DNA of 64,000 bases from an uncultured Gemmatimonadales bacterium (GCA_963835535.1 CAWIFL010000002.1:649011-713010); one strand, 5' to 3'; positions 4,279 through 41,461 are shown, counted from the first letter of the stretch. The notes: generated by a model not told the origin, from the letters alone. Numbers and translations: made by a program.

Positions 4279-6926
4279 ATGCGGGTGCTCCAGAGCGCCT
4301 GGCGCTTCACCCGGCGCCCGATGATCACTCTGGCCGCGATGGAGCTTGCCTCGACGCTCCTGGGCGCTGCGGCTGGGCCCCTGACCCCTAACCCCTATCC
4401 CCTAACCCCTGTCTTTCTCGCCGCCCAGCAGCCCGCCGGAGTGTCGGACCAACAGCTCCAGCAATACCTCCAGCAGCCGGGCATCGCCGACCAGCTGCGC
4501 CAGCGCATCCAGCAGAGCGGCCTCTCGGCCGACGAGATCCGCTCACGCCTCCGGGCCGCGGGTTACCCCGACAGCGCCATGAACGCCTACCTCGCCCCCG
4601 GTGCGGCGGGGGTGCAGGCGCCCGCGCCGACGCTCGAGACGCTCCGCGCCGCCACGGCGCTGGGGCTGGGGACGTTCGGGCCCTCGCCCGACACGCTGAA
4701 CGCGCTCCGCCGGGTCGTGGCGCTCTCGCAGGGGGACTCGATCCTCCTCGACTCCCTGGGCTTCGAGATCGGCCGCGACTCGATCCCCGGCCGGATGGGG
4801 AGCGACGGCGTGATGCGCCTCGACACGGCCGCGGCGCTCCGGATCTCGGCGTGGCTCAAGCGGCCCAAGGTCTTCGGCCTCGACGTCTTCAGGCGCACGA
4901 CGACGCAGTTCAGTCCGGTCGCCTCCGGGCCGGTGGACGCCGGCTACCGCCTCGGGCCGGGGGACGACCTGATCCTGATCCTCACCGGAGACGCGGACGT
5001 CGTCGAGGAGCTGCCCGTCACGCGCGAGGGGTTCGTGGTGATCCCGCAGGTAGGGCGCGTGCCGGTCGCGAACCTCACCCTGGGCGAGCTGCGGACGCTG
5101 CTCGCGACGCGGCTGGCGCGCGTGTACTCCGGCGTGAGGACGGGGACGATCCGCTACGACGTGACCGTCTCGCGGGTGCGGATGAACCAGGTGTTCGTGG
5201 ACGGCGAGGTGGTGCGGCCCGGCTCCTACCCGGTGAGCGCGCTCGGCACCGTGATGAACGCGCTCTACCTGGCGGGGGGCCCGACCGAGGCGGCCGACTT
5301 CCGCGACGTGCGCGTCATGAGGGGCGGCGCCGTGATCCAGCAGCTCGACCTCTACGACTACCTGGTCCGCGGGAACACGCGCGGCGACATCCGGCTCGAG
5401 CAGGGCGACGTGGTCTTCGTGCCGCCGGTCCAGCGGCGCGTGCAGGTCACGGGCGCCGTGCTGCGGCCGGGCTTCTACGACCTGGCCGACACGGAGGACC
5501 TGGGCGCCCTGATCCACTACGCCGGCGGGCTGCTGCCCAATGCGGATCAGGGACGGGCGCACATCGAGCGCATCCTCCCGGAGGCCCAGCGGCAGGCGGG
5601 CGGGCGCGATCGCGTGGCGATGGACGTGAACGATCTCGCCGGGGTGCTCCGGAGGGGGGGGCGGGGGGCGGCACGACGCCTCACTTCCGGCTGGAGCCCG
5701 GCGACCGCGTCACGATCTTCCCCGTCACCGAGGCCGTCCGGGGCGAGGTCACGCTGCGGGGGAGCGTCTGGAAGCCCGGCCCCTACGCCGTGGAGCCGGG
5801 GATGACGCTCTCGCGCCTCCTCGCCGAGGCGGGCGGCCTCAAGCCCGACGCGTATCTCGATCGAGCGCACGTCGTGCGCCTGATGCCGGATTCGACGCGG
5901 CGGCTGATCACCGCGGATCTGCGCTCGCTCCTCGGGCCCGGAGGGGCGATCCTGCCGAATCCGCCGGCGGCCGACGACCCGCAGCTCGCGGAGAACGACG
6001 AGGTGACGGTCTTCGCCACGCCGGAGTTCCGGCCGCCGCGCGAGATCCGGGTCTTCGGCGCCGTGCAGCACCCCGGCACCTATTCCTTCCGGGACTCGAT
6101 GACGGTGCGGGACGCCGTCATTCTCGCGGGCGGGCTCGGCGACGACGCGTATCTGCTCGAGGCGGAGATCTCGCGCCTGCCGCAAAGCCCGACGGACACC
6201 TCCGCGCTCGCCCAGATCATCCACGTCCCGCTCGACTCGAGCTACGTGATCGATCCGACGTCATACGTGCGGCGCGTCACCGCGCCGCAGGGGTCGAATC
6301 CGGTCCTGCAGCCGTCCGACTACGTCTTCGTCCGGCGGGTGCCGGGGCTGGAGCCGCAGCGGACGGTGGTCGTCACGGGCCAGGTGCGATTCCCCGGCCA
6401 CTACGCGCTGACGAGCCGGGACGATCGGCTGGCGGACGTCCTGCGCCGCGCGGGGGGCGTGACGACGAACGCGTACGTGCACGGCGCGCAGTTCTTCCGC
6501 TCGTTGGGCCATGCCGGCCGGATCGGCATCGACTTCGAGGGGGTGCTGAAGGACCAGCGCAACCGGGACAACCTGCCGCTCTTCGGCGGCGACTCGATCT
6601 ACGTGCCGGAGTACCAGCCGATCGTGAGCGTCGAAGGGGCGGTGAACAGCCCGGTCGCGGTGGCGTACGAGCAGGGGCGCGGGACGGGCTTCTACATCGA
6701 GCGGGCGGGCGGGTTCACGCGCCACGCGGACAAGGGGCGGACGTACGTGATCCAGCCCAACGGCTCGGTGTTCACGCGGAGCGCCACGCCCGAGCCGGGG
6801 GCCAGGGTCGTGGTGCCGGAGACGCCGCCGGGCGAGCGCACCAACTGGATACAGATCCTGTCCAGCGTAGGCCAGCTCCTGGTGAGCACGGTGACGCTGG
6901 CGATCCTGGCCAAGCAGGTGCTGTAG
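4279..6926 (+). CDS. Outer-membrane polysaccharide export protein (OPX/Wza-family, Poly_export + multiple SLBB repeats), paralogue 1; interrupted by one frameshift as assembled
   Basis: Two overlapping ORFs (4165-5805 and 4851-6926) together align end to end with the 21157-23832 paralogue. The frame switches inside the G8/G6 tract at 5654-5668. Repeated SLBB-like motifs are present (GAVxxPGxY, D...LxxAGG). C-terminal hydrophobic helix NWIQILSSVGQLLVSTVTLAILA. Alternative start at TTG 4243. Confidence 0.8.
4385..4410 (+). repeat. 7-bp tandem repeat (CCCCTAA/CCCCTAT) x3.7 inside the exporter-1 coding region
   Basis: Direct reading gives cccctaa cccctat cccctaa cccct, which encodes PLTPNPYPLTP just after the predicted signal/anchor segment. 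Confidence 0.85.
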
Positions 6927-15968: not shown

Positions 15969-17297
15969 GCGATCGCCCTCTCACGCACCGGGTGCCCCAC
16001 CCACCACATCGCCGCGCCGAGGAGGACCGCGTCAAGCGTGACCCTGAGCGTCCAGGCCAGGGCGGCCCCCGCGACGCCGTACGCTTCGATCAGCACCCAC
16101 GCCGCCGCCGCGTACAGCGGCAGCTCGATGAGGTGGAACATGGCCGGGATGTCGGGGCGGCCCCTGGCGAGGAGATACGCCGAGGGGAGGTACGCGAGCC
16201 CGTTGACGAGCACGCCGCCGGCCAGGATCGCGAGCGCCGTCGCCCCATTCGCGGCGTAGGCGTCGCCCAGCCACACGCTGAGCAGCGGATGCGCGAAGAG
16301 CGCGGCGAGGCCGGTGGGGAGCGCCAGGGCGGGAAGCAGGTACCAGAGCGCCCGTCCGACCAGCCGCTCGCTCTCGCGGCCCCCCCCTGCTCCGCTCTGC
16401 GCGGCACTCGCGCTCACGAGCGGGAAGAGCGCGCCCGCCAGGCTGGCCGGGACGATCGAGATCCGGATGATGGCCTCGAACGGCGCGGTGTAGTAGGCCA
16501 CGGCCGCCACGCCCGCGAGCGACGCGAGCAGGAACCGCTCGAGGTAGCCCAGGACTGGCGCGATGGCGTTCGAGACGCTCACCCAGCCGCCGTAGGCCAG
16601 CAAGCGGCCGAAGCACCGCCCAGCTCGGCCGCAGCTCCCAGCGGAACTCCGGCAGCGAGCGCCGGATCGCCACGGCCAGCGCCCAGCACGCCGCGATGCG
16701 GGTGGCCAGCAGCAGGAGCACGATCGTGGCGAGGCTGGCGCCGAGCGGCGCGGCGATGGCGGGTATGGCGAACCCCGCCACGGCCAGCGGGCCCCGCACC
16801 AGGTTGCCGAGATCGAACCGCTGCGCCCCCTCGAGGATCCCCCTGAGGCTCGCGGAGAGCACCACGAACGGGACCGAGGCGGCGAGCGCGATCAGCGCGA
16901 GGTGCGCCTCGCGATGCAGCGCGGCCGGGATGCCGAGGGCGCTCGTGAGCCATCCGCTCGCCAGCGCGAGAGCGACCCCGCCGATCACCCCGAGCCCGGT
17001 CTGGCTCGCGACCGTGAGGCCGGCCACGCGCCGCAGCTCGGCGTGCTTCCCCAGAGACAGATACTCGGCCACGTACTTGGTGGTCGCACGGCCCAGGCCG
17101 AGGTCGAGCGCCACGGCGGAACCCAGGATCGCCCAGATCAGGCCGAGCAGTCCGAACCGGGGTGCGCCGAGGTAGCGCGTGGCGATGGGGATCGCCGCGA
17201 CACCTACCAGGAGGGGGACGGCCTGGCCCAGCAGGTTGTAGAGGGTGTTCCGCGCGAGGGCGCGGCCGTGCTCAGCAGTGCTGCTCGACGTAGTCAT
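15965..17297 (-). CDS. Wzx-type polysaccharide flippase (MOP superfamily) 1; one frameshift as assembled
   Basis: The N-terminal ORF (from 17297) reads ARNTLYNLLGQAVPLLVGVAAIPIATRYLG..FGLLGLIW. The C-terminal ORF 15965-16603 continues the TM pattern. The frames join near 16600-16612. Confidence 0.7.
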
Positions 17298-19533: not shown

Positions 19534-21090
19534 CTACGCCGCGCCGCGGCGGCGGACCACGGCCGGGATCGTGAGGAGGAGGATCTTGAGGTCCAGCCAG
19601 AGGGACCAATCGCGCAGGTACTCGGTGTCCAGGGCCACGACCTCCTCGAAGTCCACGATGTCGCTGCGGCCGCTCACCTGCCAGAGGCCGGTGATCCCGG
19701 GCTTCATGCCGAGGCGACCGAAGTGGTGGATCTCGTAGTAGTCGAGGTCGCTCTCGAAGAAGGGCCGCGGGCCGACGAGGGACATCTCTCCCTTGAGGAC
19801 GTTCCAGAGCTGCGGCAGCTCGTCGAGGCTCCAGCGCCGCAGCCACGCGCCGACGCGCGTCACCCTCGGGTCCTCGATGATCTTGAAGAGCCGCGGGTCG
19901 CCGGAATGGTTGAGATGGGCGAGCTTCCCCTTCAGGCCATCGGCGCCGTCCTGCATCGTCCTGAGCTTCCACATCCTGAACGGCCGCCCGCCGATCCCCG
20001 CGCGCCTCTGGGTGAAGAACACCGGGCCCCTGGAGCCGAGCTTGATGGCCACGGCGAGCACGGCGAAGACCGGAGAGAGAATCAACAGGCCGAGGGCGCC
20101 GGCCAGGAAGTCCATGGCACGCTTCACCAGGAACTGTTGGGCCTTGAGCGTCTGGCCGACCAGCTCGACCAGCGGCAGGCCGCGCTTCCAGACGACGACC
20201 GGGCTCACGCCGGGGACTTCGAAGACCGGCGGCACGGCGAAGATGTGGCACCCCGACGTCACGGCGTGGTCCACCACCTCGCGCAGTGTCGCCCGGTCCA
20301 CGGCGCCGCACAGCACCACCGTCTCGACCCGACGCTCGTGGATGATGCCGGGGAGCATCGCCACGTGGCCGAGGGATTCGGGATGCGCGGGCGCCGCCAC
20401 GTCCACGAAGCCCAGGACCGCGTGCTCGGAGCGGTGGGCGAAGGCCCGCTGGTTGCCGACGCTGCGGCAGGCGGCCGCGGGCCCGACCAGGACGGTGCGC
20501 GAAGACGCCGGCTGCCGGCCGATGATGCGGGCGTCCACGGCCTCGAGCGTGAGGCGGAAGACCGCAACCACGGCCCAGAGGGTCAGGGTGGTGACCGCGT
20601 ACTGCGCAGCCACGAGCGCGAGGCCATGGCCCCAGAATGGCGCCCAGAGCGGCAGGGCCGAAGCGAGCGCGCACCCGAGGAGGAGGCGGGTCGGGTCTCG
20701 CCTGTGGTCGCCGGCGCCGTAGTTGCCCGTGACCACGAGACCGGCCAGGAGCGCCGCGGCAAATTGCCACCCCCCGAACGCCGCGTCAGGGTAGAGCGAG
20801 CGGACGGGGGCGGCGAGAGCCGGCCCCAGCGCGGCACGCTCGCCGACCAGACGGTACAGCGCCCGAACCGCCCAGAACGCCGCGAGATCGGAGACGGCGA
20901 GGACGATCACCCGCGCCACCTCGCGCACCAGGTGCCGGCGCAGGATGCGGGGCGCCCGGCGCTGCAGCCCCATCTTGAGGTGGCCGGCGCCGTCTTCGCG
21001 TTCGGTTACGAGGGTCAACTCGGCCAGGTCCGCCTCACGGAGGGACGCCAGTAGGGTTTCGGCGCGTTCAAAGCTAACTTCCGCTGCCAC
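19534..21090 (-). CDS. Polyprenyl-phosphate hexose-1-phosphate transferase (WbaP/CpsE/EpsB-type initiating enzyme)
   Basis: The C-terminal catalytic domain reads KRAMDFLAGALGLLILSPVF...GSRGPVFFTQRRAGIGGRPFRMWKLRTM...DELPQLWNVLKGEMSLVGPRP. An N-terminal TM bundle plus a central Rossmann-like region are present. The true start may be internal (MGLQRR...). Confidence 0.85.
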   Translation of the reverse strand: MAAEVSFERAETLLASLREADLAELTLVTEREDGAGHLKMGLQRRAPRILRRHLVREVARVIVLAVSDLAAFWAVRALYRLVGERAALGPALAAPVRSLYPDAAFGGWQFAAALLAGLVVTGNYGAGDHRRDPTRLLLGCALASALPLWAPFWGHGLALVAAQYAVTTLTLWAVVAVFRLTLEAVDARIIGRQPASSRTVLVGPAAACRSVGNQRAFAHRSEHAVLGFVDVAAPAHPESLGHVAMLPGIIHERRVETVVLCGAVDRATLREVVDHAVTSGCHIFAVPPVFEVPGVSPVVVWKRGLPLVELVGQTLKAQQFLVKRAMDFLAGALGLLILSPVFAVLAVAIKLGSRGPVFFTQRRAGIGGRPFRMWKLRTMQDGADGLKGKLAHLNHSGDPRLFKIIEDPRVTRVGAWLRRWSLDELPQLWNVLKGEMSLVGPRPFFESDLDYYEIHHFGRLGMKPGITGLWQVSGRSDIVDFEEVVALDTEYLRDWSLWLDLKILLLTIPAVVRRRGAA

Positions 21091-21115: not shown

Positions 21116-21170
21116 CTCTTGACGGATGGGGTGACGTGAAGCACATTCACTTTGCCATGCAAAGTACTTT
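21116..21170 (+). promoter_or_regulatory. Candidate promoter/5' element of exporter gene 2 (block shared with 4202-4256)
   Basis: CTCTTGACGG (21116-21125). Its TTGACG ends 32 nt before ATG 21157. TGCAAAGTACTTT follows at 21158-21170. It lies in a 66-bp divergent intergenic region. Confidence 0.4.
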
Positions 21171-23832
21171 TTCGCGCCCGATCGTGTTCCTGGTGGCCCT
21201 GGAGCTGGGGTTGACAGCTTCTCGGGGGCGGCTGGGTGGTCGCTACACCCTACACCCTACACCCTATCACCCTCGCCTTTGGCCGCCCAGCAGATCCCTA
21301 CTAGGCCCGCCAACGTCTCCGACCAGCAGCTGCAGCAGTACACCCAGCAGCCGGGGATGGGGGCCCAGATCCAGCAGGCGATCCAGCAGAGCGGCCTGAC
21401 GCCGGACCAGATCAGGGCGCGCCTGCGCGCGGCGGGATACCCCGAGAACCTGATTGACCAGTACATGCAGGCCCCGGCGGCCGGGCAGGCGGTGCCGAAC
21501 CCCACAGCGCAAATGCTGAGAGCGGTGTCGGCTTTGGGCATCGGCACCTTTGGAGCGCTTCCCGATACGCTTGCCGCCCGCCGCGACTCGATCTTCCTGA
21601 CGCGCGACGATTCCCTGCTCCTCGACTCCCTCGGCTTCACGATCGGCGTGGACTCGATCCCGACCAGGCGGGATACGCTCGGCTTCCTGCGCATAGACTC
21701 GCTGGCCACGTTCCGGTTGGCGGAGCGGGTGCACCGCCTGCGAGTCTTCGGCCTCGACGTCTTCCGGCGCACGACGACGCAGTTCAATCCCGCGGCCACC
21801 GGGCCTGTGGACCCCGACTACCGGCTCGGGCCGGGTGACCAGCTCGTGCTGATCCTCACCGGGGATGTGGAGACGGGTGTCGAGCTACCCGTCACACGGG
21901 AGGGCTTCATCGTCATCCCGCAGGTGGGGCAGCTCTACGTGGCCAACCTCACGATGGACCAGCTCCGGGACCTGCTCTACTCGCGGCTGGGACGGGTGTA
22001 CTCGGGGGTCAAGCGCGGGGCAGGCGCGACCACGCACTTCCAGGTCGCCGTGTCGCAGGTCAGGGTGAATCAGATCTTCGTGACCGGCGAGGTGGCGCGG
22101 CCCGGCGCATTCTCGGTGAGCGCTCTGGGCACGGTGATGAACGCGCTTTACGCCGCGGGCGGGCCGACCGAGCACGCCGACTTCCGTGGGGTGAAGGTGA
22201 TGCGGGCCGGGAAGGCGGTCGCGACGCTCGACCTTTACGACTATCTGCTGTCGGGGAACACTCGCAACGACGTCCGGCTCGAGCAGGGCGACGTGGTCTT
22301 CGTGCCACCCGTGAGCCGTCGCGTGGAGATCCGGGGCCAGGTGATGCGGCCGGCGCTGTACGATCTGGCCCAGGGGCAAGACCTCCGCGAATTGATCCAG
22401 ATGGCCGGCGGACTTCTGCCGCAGGCGTACACGGGGCGTGCGCAGATCGAGCGAATTCTCCCGCCCGACCAGCGGCCGCCGGGGGGCCGGGACCGCACCG
22501 TGGTGGACGTGGATCTCGCGGCTGCGCTGGGTCCCGGTGCCCCGTCCGTCCAGCTGGAGCCGGACGACCGGATCACGATCTTCGGCGTGAGCGTTCCGGT
22601 CAGGAACCGCGTCGTCGTCAAGGGCGACGTGTGGCGGCCGGGGGCGTACCAGGTCGATTCGGGGATGAAGCTGACCCAGCTCATCGCGGAGGCCGGAGGG
22701 CTGAAGCCCGACGCGTATCTGGACCGCGCGCACATCGTGCGATTGAACCCGGATTCGACTCGGGTCCTGATCCCGGTCAGCCTCGTGGGCATCCCGCCCC
22801 AAGGCGCGCCGGACTCCGGGCCCGCCGACACCCTACACCCTACACCCTACACCCATCTTGCCCCTACTGGGCATATCGCGTTCGATCCAGATCTCCAAGA
22901 GTTCGACGAAGTTACAGTCTATTCACGCACGGCCTTCCGCCCGACGCGGCAGATCGTGGTGTACGGCAACGTCCAGCATCCCGGCTTGTTCGCGTTCACC
23001 GACTCCCTGACCTTGCGGGACGCGGTGATGATGGCCGGGGGCTTGAGGGACGACGCGTACCTGTTGGAGGCGGAGATCTCGCGGATCCCCGAGCATCGGA
23101 CGGAGGGGGAGCTGGCCCGCGTGATCCAGGTCCCGCTCGATTCCAGCTACGTGTTCGACCCGACCGGCTACCTCAGCCGGCCGGCCGGGTCGGCCGCTCG
23201 GTCGCCCCGGCTCGAGCCGTACGACAACATCTTCATCAGGCGGGTCCCGGGCTGGGACCTCCAGCGGAACGTCTACATCACGGGCGAAGTGAAGTTCCCC
23301 GGCCGGTACACGCTCACGCGTCGCGACGAGAAGTTGCTGGATGTCCTCGACAGGGCCGGCGGGCTCACGCCGGACGCGTACATCGGCGGGGCGCAGTTCT
23401 ATCGAGCGCAGGGGAATGCGGGCCGCGTCGGCATTGACCTGAACAGGATCCTGAAGGACTCGACGTACAGGGACAACATGATCCTGTTCGCCGGCGACTC
23501 GCTGTACGTGCCGCAGTACCAGCCGGTGGTCTCGGTGGAAGGCGGCGTCAACAGCCCGGTGACGGTCGCCTATGTGCCCGGGCAGGGTACGTCGTACTAC
23601 ATTGACCGGGCGGGCGGGTTCTCGCGGCGCGCGGACAAAGGGCGGACCTACGTGGTGCAGCCCAACGGCTCGGTCGAGCGCGCGCAGCGCCACGCCGCAG
23701 CCGGGGGCGCGCGTCGTGGTGCCCGAGGTGCCGCCGGGTGAGGAGAGGACCAACTGGGCCGGGATTCTGAGCGCCGTCGCGACCATCCTCACCAGCGCGC
23801 TGACGATCGTGCTGGTGGTCCAGCGCCTGTGA
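21157..23832 (+). CDS. Outer-membrane polysaccharide export protein (OPX/Wza-family, multi-SLBB), paralogue 2; two frameshifts as assembled
   Basis: The main ORF 21279-23741 is collinear with paralogue 1. The N-terminus (MQSTFSRPIVFLVALELGLTAS) lies in another frame, with the switch at the G5 run 21224-21228. The C-terminal helix (NWAGILSAVATILTSALTIVLVV) lies in ORF 23572-23832, with the switch in the GC-dinucleotide run 23678-23685. Confidence 0.8.
21243..21270 (+). repeat. 7-bp tandem repeat (CTACACC) x3 perfect plus 1 imperfect unit in the 5' coding region of exporter 2
   Basis: Direct reading gives ctacacc ctacacc ctacacc ctatcac. It shares an identical 22-nt stretch (acaccctacaccctacacccta) with 22828-22849. 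Confidence 0.85.
22828..22855 (+). repeat. 7-bp tandem repeat (ACACCCT) x3 perfect plus 1 imperfect unit in the interior of exporter 2
   Basis: Direct reading gives acaccct acaccct acaccct acaccca, which encodes DTLHPTPYTH. The aligned position in paralogue 1 has no equivalent insert. Confidence 0.85.
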
Positions 23833-23963
23833 CGCCGGAGGCGTGAGCCGGCCGCCTTCGCCGTGCAGATGAGTTGGGACGATCATGGTACGGCACACAT
23901 CTCCGTCGAGCCGGCTTAGAACCGAAAATCGCCGGCCCGTCGGGCTTAGGGCCTGCCAGGCAT

Positions 23964-36037: not shown

Positions 36038-37049
36038 GACCCCCGCCCCCAACACCACGGTCACGATGATAATGGGCAAGTAAGCGATCATCACTCCCAG
36101 CGATCCGTCCAGCGATCCCCGCGCGACCAGTACGGCGAGGGGCAGCAACCAGCAGAGATTGATGACGCCGACCGAGATGGTGACCGGCCGGTGCGCGCCC
36201 CACAACTGGGCCGCGTGCTGGTAGGCGTGGCTCCGGTGCGCCTCGTAGAACCTGTCGCCCCGCGCCACACGGCGAATCAGCGTCACCGTAGCGTCTACCA
36301 CGAAGACACCGAGCAGTACCGCCCAGCTCCAGAAGAGCCGGGGCGCCAGCCAGCCCGCCTGCAGCGAGAGCGCCGCCAGCATCAGCCCGAGAAAGCCGCT
36401 GCCGGAATCGCCCATGAAAATCTTCGCCGGGGGCCAGTTCCAGACCAGAAAACCCGCGGTCGCCGCCGCCAGCACCAGCGGGACAAGCCACTGTGAAGAT
36501 CCCGGGGCCGCGATGAGGGCAGACAGCACGCCGCCCAAGCAGACCGTGATCCCCTCGACGCCGGCGATGCCGTCTATGCCGTCCATGAAGTTGGTGAGGT
36601 TGAGCAGCCACACCAGGTACAGGGCTGCGAGAACGTAGCCGACAAAGCCGAAGTGGTGCTCCGACCCGAGCAGCGGGACGGGCGGCATACCGCCCAGCCA
36701 CACTAGGATCCACCCAGCGGCGACGAAAGGGCGCCAGCAGGCGCCACTGCGGCGCGATGTGCCGATGGTCGTCCACCGCGCCGATCGCGGCGACGATCGC
36801 CCCTCCGCCCGGAAGGCCCCACACCACGGACCAGTCCTCGAGGCCCATCCACCCCAGCACCGGCAGTGCGGCCAGCGTGGTCAGCGCGATGGCGATCCCG
36901 CCGCCGCGCGGCGTCGGCCGCGTGTGCGAGCTGCGCGCGTTGGGGAGATCCATCACCTCGCGGCGGACGGCGTAGCGCTGCGCCGCGCCGGCCAGGAGCC
37001 AGCTCAATGCCGCCGCCGCGGCGCCAAGGAACAGCCAGTGAAGACTCAC
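36038..37049 (-). CDS. Polyprenyl-phosphate N-acetylhexosamine-1-phosphate transferase (WbpL/WecA/MraY family, GT4-PNPT); one internal frameshift and no stop as assembled
   Basis: GTG 37049 forms a GTGA overlap with the epimerase stop. The N-terminal part carries MDLPNARSSHTRPTPRGGGIAI. After a frame switch near 36725-36735 it continues NLTNFMDGIDGIAG...FMGDSGSGFLG. Confidence 0.75.
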
Positions 37050-38042
37050 GCCGACGGCATCCGCCGGGCCCGAAACCAGGCCGCGGTCGCGGCCAGACCC
37101 GCTGACAGGCTGTGCGGCGGGACGTACCCGGTTCTCCTCAGCCGCGTCGAGTCGAGGACCAGCGAACCGGTCAGACCGTCCATGCCGTTCGCACTTATCC
37201 CGATAGGCACCACTCGCGAAACAAGCTCCGCGATCACTCCCCCCAGTCGCAGCAGCGCCGGCGGCACGGCCACCAGGCGGGCCGGGACATCGAGGGCCTG
37301 CGCGACCGCCCGCACGAGAAGCGGCGTGGACACGATCTCGGGGTCCGCAACCACGTACGTGCCCTCCGACCTCCCGTCGGCCAGAACCGCGAGCAGCGCC
37401 GCAACGAGGTTGCCGACGAACAGCATGCTGCGCTGGTTCCTGACGGCGCCCACGGGGATCGGAAGCCCACGGTCCACGACCTGGAACAAGCCGAAGCAGG
37501 TTGCCCTTCATGCCCGGCCCGTATACGAGCGGAGGGCGGAAGATCAGCGCTCTCATCCCGGCGCCGGCGGCCACTTCACGCACCAGGCCCTCGGCCTCCA
37601 GCTTGCTCACGCCGTACGCGCTGACCGGCGCCGGCGCCGTCGCTTCGTTGACGGGCCGCTCACTCTTCCCGCACGTCGCGGCGATAGAGCTCATGAAGAG
37701 GAAATGCCGCACGCCAGCGCGCTCCGATTCCTCGAGCAGCGCCCGCGTGCCCTCCACGTTGACGCGCCGGAATTCGTCGGACCTGAGGGCGTCCCGGATC
37801 ACGACGTGGACCGCACCCGCCAGGTGGACGACGGTACGCACGCCGTCCAGCGCAGCGCCGAGCGCGGCGCGATCGAGCAGATCCCCGGAGACGGCCGCGA
37901 CACCCGCCGGAAGTGACGTGGCGGGTGGCAGCACGAGCGCGCGCACCCTCATCCCGGAGCCGACGAGCGCCCGCGAGACGTGCTGGCCGATGAAGCCGGT
38001 GGCGCCCGTGACGAGCACAACGTCACCGCCGTCGCCTGCCAC
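37046..38042 (-). CDS. NAD-dependent sugar epimerase/dehydratase (extended SDR); one frameshift as assembled
   Basis: VLVTGATGFIGQHV, SSIAA and YGVSKLEAE motifs in the first frame. The C-terminal 147 aa (FQVVDRGLPIPVGAVRNQRSMLFVGNL...) lie in ORF 37046-37489. The switch is near 37483-37493. Confidence 0.75.
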
Positions 38043-39202: not shown

Positions 39203-40193
39203 ATGTCCGTGGAACGCGTCTTGATAGCGGGAGGAGGAGGGTTCATCGGCGGGCACCTCGCCGCTGAATTGCGCCGCCGGGGATGCGCCGTCCGAGCCGT
39301 GGACATCAAGCCAATCGAAGAGTGGTATCAGGTCTTCGACGATGTGGAGAACGTCGTCGCCGACCTCAAGCTCCGGGAGGCATGCGAGCGTGCCTGTCGC
39401 GGCGTCGACACCGTGTATCAGCTCGCGGCCGACATGGGAGGCATGGGCTTCATCGAGAACAACAAGGCGCTGTGCATGCTCTCAGTGCTCATCAACACCC
39501 ACATGCTCCAGGCGGCCCGCGCGGCCGGGGTCAGCCGGTACTTCTACTCCTCTTCGGCGTGCGTGTACAACGCAGACAAGCAGACGCTCGACCAACGTCG
39601 TGCCTCTCAAGGAGGAAGACGCCTATCCCGCGATGCCCGAGGACGGCTACGGGTGGGAGAAGCTCTTCTCGGAGCGGATGTGCCGGCATTTCCGCGAGGA
39701 CTTCGGCTTCCCACGCGCGTGGCCCGGTTCCACAACGTCTACGGCCCGCTTGGCACGTGGGACGGCGGACGGGAGAAGGCTCCCGCGGCGATTTGCCGGA
39801 AGGTCATTCACGCGCTGGAGAACCGGCGAGAACGGCATCGAGATCTGGGGCAGCGGGGAGCAGACGCGTTCGTTCATGTACATCGACGACTGCATCAAGG
39901 GCATCCTGCAAATTACGGCCAGCGACATCATCGAGCCCATCAACCTCGGATCCAACGAGCTCGTCACGATCAACCAGCTCGTGGACATCGTCGAGGACAT
40001 CGCCGGCGTGAAACTCGAGCGCCGCTACAACCTCGCGGCCCCGAAGGGCGTCAACGGACGCAACTCCGACAACACGCGCATCAAGAAGCTCCTGGGATGG
40101 GAGCCGTCCATTCCCCTGCGCACGGGCATGGAAACCACTTATCGCTGGATTCACGACGAATACGTGAAAGCCAACGGCGCCAAGCGTTCGTGA
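39203..40193 (+). pseudogene. GDP-mannose 3,5-epimerase homologue; three frameshifts as assembled
   Basis: Segments in alternating frames together reproduce the GME pattern: RVLIAGGGGFIGGHL, LAADMGGMGFI, SSSACVY | NVVPLKEEDAYPAMPEDGYGWEKL | RVARFHNVYGPLGTWDGGREKAPAAICRK | IEIWGSGEQTRSFMYIDDC...GRNSDN. Switches lie near 39590, 39712 and 39820. Confidence 0.75.
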
Positions 40194-41461
40194 CGGCGCA
40201 GGCGCAGGCGACGCCGGCGGCCGCCACGCGGCCGCCTCGCCCGAAGACCATCGTTCTCCTCTGCCAGCATTTCTTCCCCGAGATGATCTCGACGGGGATC
40301 CACATGACGGAACTGGCCGTCGCCCTCACGCGACTGGGCTGGGCCATCAGCGCCGTCTGCGCCCAACCACGCCTGCTGGTCGCAACCAACAACGCGCGCG
40401 TCCCGACCCAAATGACATACCAAGGCATCAGGATAGCCAGATCCGGCGCCTTGGGTTCACATGACGGCCTCGCGAGCCGGCTGCTCTTCGCGATGACGTT
40501 TTCGCTGACCAGCATCGTGCAGGTCCTCCGTGTCGGGCGCGGGGCGCGGGGCGTCGTCCTGACAACCAACCCTCCTTTCCTTGGCTTGGCGGCGTGGCTG
40601 ATCAGCAAGATGCGTTTCTTACCCTACGCGCTCATTGTCTACGATGTCTACCCGGAGATCGCAGTTCGCCTCGGCGTGGTCCGAGCCGGGTCCTTCCTGG
40701 AGCGCCTGTGGGAGCATCTGACTCGGGCCGTGCTGAACGAGGCCGCCGCAGTGATCGTGATCGGCCGGGACATGGAACCGATCATCGCGGCCAAGATGCG
40801 ACCCGACCGCCGAGAGCGCATTCGACTCATCCCGAACTGGTCGGACGACCACGTCGTCGCTCCGATGCGGCCGGAGGAGAACCCGTTCATTCAGGAGCAT
40901 CACCTTCACGGGCGGTTTGTCGTCCAGTACGCCGGTCGAATGGGGCGCACGCACAACCTCGAGCCGCTGGTCGCGGCAGCCGATCTGCTGCGTGACGAGG
41001 GCATAGTCTTCCAGTTCATCGGCGATGGGGCAAAACGTAGTGACCTGCTCACGCTGTGTCGCGTCCAGGGCTTGTCAAACGTCGTGTTCCTTCCCTACCA
41101 GCCGATGGAGCGGCTGCGCGAGATGCTGGCAGCCGCTGACGTCTCCGTGGTATGCCTGGAGCGCCAGTTCACCGGACTCTCGGTGCCCAGCAAGACCTAC
41201 GGCGTGATGGCTGCGGGAAGGCCAATCCTCGCCTTCCTCGATCCGGAGAGCGAGATAGGACGAACAATCGTGGAGAACAACTGCGGTGTGGTGCTTCGGG
41301 ATCCCACTGGCACGCAAGTGGCTTCTATCGTCCGCGAGCTGAAGCAGAATCGTGCCCGACTCGAGCGAATGGGGCAGAACGGCCGATCCGCGTTTCTGGC
41401 GAACTACACGCTCAGTCTCGCAGCCCAGCGGTACGATGCCTGCCTATCCGCCGTGCTCTGA
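40190..41461 (+). CDS. GT4 glycosyltransferase (WcaI-like)
   Basis: GTG 40190 forms a GTGA overlap with the GME stop. It begins KTIVLLCQHFFPEMISTGIHMTELA. The C-terminal part reads VSVVCLERQFTGLSVPSKTYGVMAAGRPILA. Confidence 0.7.
   Translation: MTAQAQATPAAATRPPRPKTIVLLCQHFFPEMISTGIHMTELAVALTRLGWAISAVCAQPRLLVATNNARVPTQMTYQGIRIARSGALGSHDGLASRLLFAMTFSLTSIVQVLRVGRGARGVVLTTNPPFLGLAAWLISKMRFLPYALIVYDVYPEIAVRLGVVRAGSFLERLWEHLTRAVLNEAAAVIVIGRDMEPIIAAKMRPDRRERIRLIPNWSDDHVVAPMRPEENPFIQEHHLHGRFVVQYAGRMGRTHNLEPLVAAADLLRDEGIVFQFIGDGAKRSDLLTLCRVQGLSNVVFLPYQPMERLREMLAAADVSVVCLERQFTGLSVPSKTYGVMAAGRPILAFLDPESEIGRTIVENNCGVVLRDPTGTQVASIVRELKQNRARLERMGQNGRSAFLANYTLSLAAQRYDACLSAVL

What the first reader, a model, noticed from the sequence alone, without database searches (positions are those of the whole stretch)
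22828..22855. Second copy of the same heptamer array deep inside exporter gene 2
- A 22-nt stretch (acaccctacaccctacacccta) is identical to the 5' array at 21245-21266.
- It lies ~1.6 kb downstream in the same gene, as an insert relative to paralogue 1. Paralogue 1 reads GAILPNPPAADD where paralogue 2 reads PADTLHPTPYTHLAPTG.
- Two identical slippage-prone arrays in one gene could also mediate a ~1.6-kb internal deletion by recombination.
Basis: seen in the sequence. Interest (0 to 1): 0.6.

Follow-up and report, generated by a model that had tools for sequence, protein, structure and literature searches.

The report
Heptamer repeat inside polysaccharide exporter gene
A real, stably inherited four-unit 7-base repeat is translated in frame within a floppy loop of a Gemmatimonadales polysaccharide exporter; it belongs to a known class of bacterial heptamer repeats and shows no sign of acting as a genetic switch.

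Summary
ACACCCTACACCCTACACCCTA occurs exactly at 21245-21266 and 22828-22849, with none expected by chance, and both sites are period-7 arrays of about 4 units.

- **Reproducibility:** the internal array is not an artefact. It is base-for-base identical in at least 10 independent metagenome or MAG contigs, always with the same copy number.
- **Location:** it is read in frame (TLHPTPYT) within a predicted disordered, hypervariable loop of an SLBB domain of a Wza/OPX-type exporter.
- **Sister alleles:** these carry a different heptamer array, (CCCCGGA)x4, at the same site. The array allele is only 9 nt longer than they are. The extra length relative to paralogue 1 is the whole loop, which all gene-2 orthologues share.
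- **The 22-nt identity is private to this genome:** close relatives have a mixed 5' array (CCCTAAC/CCCTACA).
- **Best reading:** a heptanucleotide simple-sequence repeat of the widespread (CCCTNNN)n, G-quadruplex-capable class. It turns over by slippage and probably by short templated copying from the older 5' array.
- **Not supported:** there is no evidence for phase variation or for a 1.6-kb deletion.
- **Frame breaks:** both exporter genes in this window are frame-broken, but the breaks lie at single-base indels outside the arrays. These are probably assembly errors.

Interest is modest.

The parts
22828..22854 (+). Internal heptamer array (ACACCCT)x3.9, or 22825-22854 x4.3 with one mismatch. 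It is translated in frame as T-L-H-P-T-P-Y-T(H). It has four CCC tracts on the coding strand.
   Evidence: The DNA is identical in L001, L003, L011 and L203-L209.
21243..21273 (+). 5' heptamer array (CTACACC)x4.3, with one 8-nt unit CCCTATCA. By homology it lies in the signal-peptide-coding region, just before the LAAQQ motif.
22779..22907 (+). Hypervariable loop-coding segment (SLVGIPPQGAP...DPDLQEFD) of an SLBB domain, which contains the internal array. It is 129 nt here, 117-120 nt in other gene-2 orthologues and 84 nt in paralogue 1.
   Evidence: The AlphaFold model gives pLDDT below 50 and no secondary structure for residues 509-533, between strands 495-500 and 544-549.
21157..23835 (+). 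Exporter gene 2, a Wza/OPX-type protein with Poly_export plus 5 SLBB domains. ATG 21157 is the homology-inferred start. The intact ORF as sequenced is 21279-23741. The end near 23835 is inferred from orthologues. Single-base insertions at 21216, 21228 and 23680 break the frame.
4378..4410 (+). Equivalent 5' heptamer array (CCCCTRA)x4.7 in paralogue 1, encoding PLTPNPYPLTP before LAAQQ.

Best explanation
The internal array is a genuine, heritable heptanucleotide simple-sequence repeat, (CCCTACA) of about 4 units. It belongs to the widespread heptamer SSR class with a CCCT core, which is G-rich on the opposite strand.

It lies in frame within a disordered, sequence- and length-variable loop of an SLBB domain of a Gemmatimonadales Wza/OPX polysaccharide exporter. 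It is simply translated there as a Pro/Thr-rich stretch.

It is a derived allele. It replaced an older (CCCCGGA)-type heptamer array at the same site. This step is inferred from the outgroup.

Its unit is the one long present in the array of the signal-peptide-coding region of the same gene. The most economical origin is therefore short templated copying from the 5' array (template switching or short-patch conversion), followed by slippage and homogenisation. This step is inferred, not shown.

In this genome the 5' array was itself homogenised to CCCTACA, which created the 22-nt identity.

At four units the array is genetically stable. It is not operating as a rapid ON/OFF switch.
For: - **Real and reproducible:** the array and its copy number are identical in L001, L003, L011 and L203-L209, from several samples and assemblers. 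The peptide is the same in P0001, P0121, P0122, P0124 and P0045, and in P0127 apart from one residue just after the array-encoded stretch.
- **Tolerant site:** the loop varies in length and sequence across 35 loci. The model gives pLDDT below 50 for residues 509-533.
- **Site-specific heptamer periodicity with different units:** L002 and L004 have (CCCCGGA)x3.9. The outgroup L005/L006 has a degenerate CCGGGNC periodic version.
- **The CCCTACA unit is old at the 5' site:** it is seen in L001-L004 and in L012, a 73% orthologue, and as the TPYTL peptide in P0008, P0012 and P0014. At the internal site it occurs only in the clade with at least 95% identity.
- **The 5' array is the fastest-changing part of the gene:** it shows 17-33 differences per 100 nt against about 3 elsewhere. 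Three allelic versions occur among strains that share the internal array.
- **Known class:** (CCCTACA)n was found in more than 120 genome stretches. Most are cyanobacteria, and two other Gemmatimonadales are among them. Heptameric G-rich SSRs with a preference for four units are described in PMC4692102.
- **Period 7 is enriched** among tandem repeats in 0.8 Mb of related loci: 33 arrays, against 6 for period 8.
Against: - Copying from the 5' array is inferred only from the shared unit and the relative ages of the alleles. The flanks share no similarity, and relatives with the internal array have just one CCCTACA unit at the 5' site.
- Independent origin from a mutationally favoured CCCT-core unit cannot be excluded.
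- The count of contigs without copy-number change covers consensus assemblies only. It does not cover minority reads.
- The three arrays make up 3 of only 6 canonical G4 motifs in the window. That could mean they are not neutral.
Confidence: 0.55

Rival explanations
1. Convergence. The two arrays arose independently by replication slippage, because CCCT-core heptamers are mutationally favoured. On this view the shared unit and the 22-nt identity are coincidence, not copying.
For: (CCCTNNN)n arrays with mixed units are common in unrelated phyla. No flank similarity exists between the two sites. Slippage within the 5' array alone can explain its homogenisation.
Against: There are about 2,300 possible heptamer units. 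The same unit recurs in cis within one gene, and a second same-unit pair (5' plus internal) occurs in an rmlB-like gene of L056. These are the only two same-unit pairs among 33 period-7 arrays.
Confidence: 0.17
2. Selected DNA structure. Four C3 tracts spaced 7 nt apart put a canonical G-quadruplex motif on the template strand, and an i-motif on the coding strand. This would modulate transcription or replication of the exporter gene.
For: All three arrays satisfy (G3+N1-7)x4 on the antisense strand. They are 3 of only 6 such motifs in 64 kb, where a shuffle expects 24 +/- 5. ViennaRNA with G4 enabled places a quadruplex in the minimum-free-energy fold. The arrays have about four units, as in the G4-forming heptamer repeats of PMC4692102. 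L002's (CCCCGGA)x4 is also G4-capable.
Against: G-tracts are not conserved in all alleles with heptamer periodicity. L006 and L203 at the 5' site, and L005/L006 at the internal site, have only C2 tracts. Other heptamer arrays in related loci lack G3 tracts (GACGGCC, TCTGACG). 'About four units' is also what a detection threshold produces. The shuffle ignores codon structure. No function was found for this class even in the reference study.
Confidence: 0.12
3. Contingency locus. Gain or loss of 7-nt units shifts the frame and switches the exporter, and hence the exopolysaccharide, ON and OFF.
For: The unit length is not a multiple of 3. A change of +/-1 or +/-2 units gives stops at residues 574-721 and removes the last SLBB domains and the C-terminal helix. 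The gene is a surface-polysaccharide gene. SSRs near N-termini are a known phase-variation signature (cited in PMC4692102).
Against: No copy-number variant was found in at least 10 independent contigs or in any member of the 90% clusters. The array has only about 4 units. The frame breaks in this window lie outside the arrays, at 21216, 21228 and 23680.
Confidence: 0.08
4. Recombination substrate. The two identical arrays mediate deletion of the roughly 1.6 kb between them.
For: There are 22 nt of perfect direct identity. One register (1590 nt) would be in frame.
Against: No deleted allele was seen among the 120 listed homologues or the cluster members. The identity is private to this genome. 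By established knowledge, 22 nt is at or below the minimal efficient length for RecA-dependent recombination, and RecA-independent deletion falls steeply with distance. The product would lack the Poly_export domain and three SLBB domains.
Confidence: 0.04
5. Assembly or sequencing artefact.
For: The window has several probable single-base indel errors.
Against: The array is base-for-base identical in many independent short-read assemblies.
Confidence: 0.01

Closest known systems
G-quadruplex-forming heptameric simple-sequence repeats (GGGAATC in Xanthomonas, GGGGAYT in Nostoc; Rehm et al. 2015, PMC4692102)
   Same: It has a 7-nt unit with a G3-4 tract on one strand and about four units. The G-rich strand is antisense to the gene. 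The 5' copies lie close to the ORF start. The unit sequence varies between relatives at the same locus.
   Different: Those repeats are mostly intergenic and under-represented in coding DNA. Here the arrays are translated in frame. The unit is different (TGTAGGG). Genome-wide dispersal in this organism could not be tested.
Cyanobacterial short tandemly repeated repetitive (STRR) heptanucleotides (Calothrix/Anabaena; own knowledge, and cited in PMC4692102)
   Same: These are tandem heptamers with a C-rich core. The very unit CCCTACA is abundant in cyanobacterial genomes.
   Different: The phylum is different and so is the context, which is coding here. The function of STRRs is equally unknown.
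Neisseria opa CTCTT repeats in the leader-peptide coding region (own knowledge)
   Same: A repeat whose unit is not a multiple of 3 sits in the signal-peptide-coding part of a surface-related gene.
   Different: The opa repeats are long and vary in number at high frequency, switching the frame. Here there are about 4 units and no copy-number variation was observed.

Membership tests
Heptameric G-rich (G4-capable) SSR class | Tandem 7-nt unit containing a G3+ tract, equivalent to a C3+ tract on the other strand | tested here: met
   (ACACCCT)x3.9 at 100% identity; four CCC tracts.
Heptameric G-rich (G4-capable) SSR class | Four or more G-tracts that fit the canonical quadruplex motif | tested here: met
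   The regex (G3+N1-7)x4 is met on the antisense strand at 22821-22847, 21248-21272 and 4378-4402. A G4 appears in the ViennaRNA minimum-free-energy fold, computed with RNA parameters.
Heptameric G-rich (G4-capable) SSR class | Quadruplex actually forms (CD or melting in K+) | not testable with these tools
   This needs biophysics on d(TGTAGGG)4.
Heptameric G-rich (G4-capable) SSR class | Many copies dispersed over the genome, mostly non-coding | tested here: inconclusive
   Only 3 arrays occur in the 64-kb window, all within the two exporter genes. The source genome was not recovered. The same unit is found in two other Gemmatimonadales MAGs, in apparently non-coding sequence or at gene starts.
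SSR contingency locus (phase variation) | A change in unit number alters the reading frame or the promoter | tested here: met
   A change of +/-1 or +/-2 units gives premature stops.
SSR contingency locus (phase variation) | Copy-number polymorphism among close relatives or within populations | tested here: not met
   The array is identical in at least 10 contigs and in all cluster members. Read-level data are not available.
Wza/OPX outer-membrane polysaccharide export protein (host gene) | Poly_export (PES) domain followed by SLBB domains and a C-terminal hydrophobic helix | tested here: met
   Pfam gives PF02563, PF10531 x5 and PF22461. The C-terminal helix is present in orthologues. It is out of frame here because of the indel at 23680.
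Diversity-generating retroelement target | A template/variable repeat pair of about 100 nt with adenine-specific differences, and a nearby reverse transcriptase | tested here: not met
   The repeat is 22 nt and identical, with no extension. The alleles differ by whole-unit replacement, not by A-specific changes. Presence of a reverse transcriptase was not searched for.

The most novel reading that the evidence does not exclude
In Gemmatimonadota polysaccharide loci, heptamer arrays may be seeded in cis. On this reading, an array at the 5' end of a gene is copied into a loop-coding site deep inside the same gene. This is seen in the exporter here and, independently, in an rmlB-like gene of L056. 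The copying creates paired direct, often G4-capable, repeats that bracket most of the gene. Such pairs could serve as an unrecognised device for loop diversification, or for programmed inactivation or deletion of surface-polysaccharide genes.
Probability: 0.08. Interest if true: 0.7.

Novelty: new member of a known kind. Interest (0 to 1): 0.33.

Why it matters
Heptamer repeats are over-represented in many bacteria, but their origin and function remain unexplained. This locus offers a clean natural series. The same two sites of one gene carry heptamer arrays with different units in different lineages, and the arrays are translated in frame. That makes it possible to study how such arrays are born, homogenised and replaced.

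As a practical warning, the frame breaks in both exporter genes of this window are unrelated to the arrays. They probably reflect assembly quality, so they should not be read as phase variation.

Tried and rejected
- **Source genome:** None of them matched the window, so the genome-wide count in the source organism is unknown.
- **Exact look-ups of window proteins:** the transferase at 19534-21090 and P0125, which equals gene 2, returned no contig. The sequencing technology of the source therefore could not be established.
- **Literature:** a search for the unit sequence gave only primer noise. Nothing was found on Gemmatimonadetes SSRs.
- **Rfam:** no family matched in the window.
- **Phase-OFF reading of gene 2:** I first thought the out-of-frame signal peptide reflected slippage in the 5' array, a phase-OFF state. 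I rejected this. Relative to five relatives, the frame is broken by two single-base insertions upstream of the array, at 21216 and 21228. The array region itself differs by +3 nt.
- **G4 conservation as the unifying feature:** only partly supported, because several alleles and several other heptamer arrays lack G3 tracts.
- **Recent recombination import:** an identity profile gave no clear block of identity around the array.
- **Structure model:** overall confidence was low (mean pLDDT 57, pTM 0.24). I used it only for local disorder and ran no fold search.

Full report
**1. Observation**

The 22-mer ACACCCTACACCCTACACCCTA occurs exactly at 21245-21266 and 22828-22849. None of 100 dinucleotide-preserving shuffles gave a match. 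Tandem Repeats Finder calls 21243-21273 as period 7 x4.3 and 22828-22854 as period 7 x3.9 at 100% identity. It also calls a third period-7 array, (CCCCTAA)x4.7, at 4378-4410. The direct repeat does not extend into the flanks.

**2. The gene**

- The ORF 21279-23741 (820 aa) has one Poly_export domain and five SLBB domains. This makes it a Wza/OPX-type polysaccharide exporter.
- Its relatives are Gemmatimonadales.
- A paralogue lies at about 4279-6926.
- In orthologues, the 5' array lies in the signal-peptide-coding region just before the LAAQQ motif. There it encodes (P)LTP(N/T)PYTLTP.
- The paralogue has its (CCCCTRA)x5 array at the equivalent place.

**3. The internal site**

The internal array encodes TLHPTPYT(H) at residues 517-525.

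- **Disordered loop.** This stretch lies in a long loop between two strands of an SLBB domain. An AlphaFold model gives pLDDT below 50 and no secondary structure for residues 509-533. The flanking strands are 495-500 and 544-549. The overall model is poor, so I used only this local signal.
- **Variable length.** Across 35 related loci, the segment between SL(V)GIP and DPxLQEFD varies from 42 to 129 nt and is highly variable in sequence.
- **Not the insert.** All orthologues of gene 2 have the long form, at 117-120 nt. Paralogue-1-type genes have 84 nt. So the 'insert relative to paralogue 1' is the loop as a whole.
- **A small length difference.** The array allele is 129 nt, only 9 nt longer than its sister alleles.

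**4. Reproducibility and stability**

The internal array and its immediate flanks are base-for-base identical in L001, L003, L011 and L203-L209. These are contigs from several JGI, NCBI and Logan samples.

The same peptide is in P0001, P0121, P0122, P0124 and P0045. It is also in P0127, apart from one residue just after the array-encoded stretch.

No copy-number variant was seen, either in frame or out of frame. The array is therefore real, inherited and stable at the level of consensus assemblies.

**5. Other alleles at the same site**

- L002 and L004 are 94% identical to the window in DNA. At exactly this place they carry (CCCCGGA)x3.9, encoding GPGPRTPDPG.
- The outgroup pair L005/L006 (87-88%) has a degenerate CCGGGNC-periodic version of that array.
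- The site has therefore been heptamer-periodic for some time. The (ACACCCT)x4 allele is the derived state.

**6. The 5' site**

| Sequence | 5' array |
|---|---|
| L001-L004 | CCCTAAC CCCTAAC CCCTACA CCCTAAC CCCTGCT |
| Window | CCCTACA x3, then CCCTATCA |
| L203 | CCTGACA / CCTGCCA units |
| L006 | (GACACCT)x4 |
| L012 (73% orthologue) | CCCTACG CCCTACA CCCTACA CCCTCACA |
| Many other orthologues | no array |

- The CCCTACA unit is therefore old at the 5' site and young at the internal site.
- The 22-nt identity between the two sites is private to the window's genome.
- The 5' region is the most divergent 100 nt of the gene between close relatives, with 17-33 differences against about 3 elsewhere.
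- I infer that the internal array was seeded from the 5' array by short templated copying and then homogenised by slippage. This is not shown, and independent convergence remains possible.

**7. What class the array belongs to**

Most were cyanobacteria. There were also Planctomycetes, Nitrospirae, Bacteroidota, Acidobacteria and two other Gemmatimonadales.
- In those genomes the arrays usually lie in apparently non-coding sequence or at gene starts. Some are heterogeneous (CCCTNNN)n runs.
- Rehm et al. (PMC4692102) describe G-rich heptameric SSRs in Xanthomonas and Nostoc. These show a preference for four units, in-vitro quadruplex formation, a position near ORF starts on the antisense strand, and no known function. 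The paper cites earlier work showing that heptamers are over-represented among bacterial SSRs.
- The arrays here fit that class in unit length, G-tract content, unit number and strand. They differ in being translated.
- In 0.8 Mb of related loci, period 7 is enriched: 33 arrays, against 6 for period 8 and 4 for period 9.

**8. G-quadruplex reading**

All three arrays place a canonical (G3+N1-7)x4 motif on the template strand. They are 3 of only 6 such motifs in the window, where a block shuffle gives 24 +/- 5. ViennaRNA with quadruplexes enabled puts a G4 in the minimum-free-energy fold.

Against selection for G4:

- Several alleles keep the heptamer period but lose the G3 tracts (L006, L203, L005/L006).
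- Other heptamer arrays in related loci have no G3 tract.
- The shuffle ignores codon structure.

**9. Phase-variation reading**

A change of +/-1 or +/-2 units would truncate the protein at residues 574-721. A change of +/-3 units keeps the frame. No such variants were found (section 4), and four units is short for a hypermutable tract.

Gene 2 is out of frame with its signal peptide in this window, but the array is not the cause. Relative to L001-L004 and L203, the window has single-base insertions at 21216 and 21228, upstream of the array. It has another at 23680 that throws the C-terminal helix out of frame.

Other frame breaks in the window:

- Paralogue 1 switches frame inside a G8-C-G6 tract at 5654-5668, whereas the L005 orthologue is continuous.
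- A further uncompensated insertion lies at 16603.
- GC3-phase switches inside genes at about 36750-37830 and 39540-40230 suggest more.

Taken together, these look like consensus indel errors. Pseudogenisation is the alternative. Neither points to array slippage.

**10. Deletion reading**

The exact register deletes 1583 nt, which is out of frame. The neighbouring registers delete 1576 or 1590 nt, and only the last is in frame. No deleted allele was seen. The identity exists only in this genome. The idea is possible as a rare accident. It is unsupported as a mechanism.

**11. A parallel case**

In L056, an rmlB-like dTDP-glucose dehydratase gene has (GACGGCY)x4 just upstream of its start. It has the same array about 850 nt downstream, in a variable loop encoding GRQPSAVSAR. 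L056 and the window are the only same-unit pairs among the 33 period-7 arrays. This hints at copying in cis, but the numbers are small.

**12. Verdict**

This is a real but ordinary heptamer SSR in a tolerant loop, and a new member of a known class whose function is not understood.

Noticed in passing
window 21216, 21228, 23680, 16603: There are uncompensated single-base insertions relative to all close relatives (L001-L004, L011, L079, L203). They break gene 2 at its signal peptide and its C-terminal helix, and break a gene around 16603. They are probably assembly indel errors; otherwise these genes are pseudogenes.
   Followed up: partly
window 5654-5668: Paralogue 1 changes frame inside a G8-C-G6 tract. 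One more G would restore an intact exporter, as in the L005 orthologue. This is either a homopolymer error or a poly-G phase-variable tract.
   Followed up: partly
window 21149-21165: A perfect palindrome, ACTTTGCCATGCAAAGT, spans the inferred ATG of gene 2. The motif ACTTTG-N5-CAAAGT recurs 13 times in 757 kb of related loci. Wherever I compared positions, it lies at the start of an OPX exporter gene, so it is a candidate operator.
   Followed up: partly
L002 2197-2227 and L004 1895-1925: A different heptamer array, (CCCCGGA)x3.9, occupies the orthologous internal site. L005/L006 carry a degenerate version of it.
   Followed up: yes
L056 91-118 and 958-986; L059 1361-1392: An rmlB-like gene has the same heptamer array (GACGGCY)x4 just upstream of its start and again inside a variable loop about 850 nt downstream. 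L059 has (CGTCAGA)x4.6 at the 5' place only.
   Followed up: partly
L018 3225-3254: A perfect (CGTTCCC)x4.3 array lies immediately upstream of the MCGIV start of an asparagine-synthase-like gene.
   Followed up: no
window, whole: Only 6 canonical G-quadruplex motifs occur in 64 kb at 68% GC, where a block shuffle expects 24 +/- 5. Three of the six are the heptamer arrays.
   Followed up: partly
L112 395-462: In another Gemmatimonadales MAG, (TAGGGTG)n and (CACCCTA)n face each other as an inverted pair that could form a hairpin. The pair lies just upstream of a long open frame.
   Followed up: no
window 23832 onward, compared with L002: Synteny with L002 ends right after the exporter gene and different sugar-modification genes follow. 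The polysaccharide locus is therefore mosaic between close strains.
   Followed up: no
window 16383-16390: A C8 tract is 6 nt longer than in L001 and L003 (GGCCCCCCCCTGC against GGCCC------GC). This is an in-frame length difference inside a gene.
   Followed up: no
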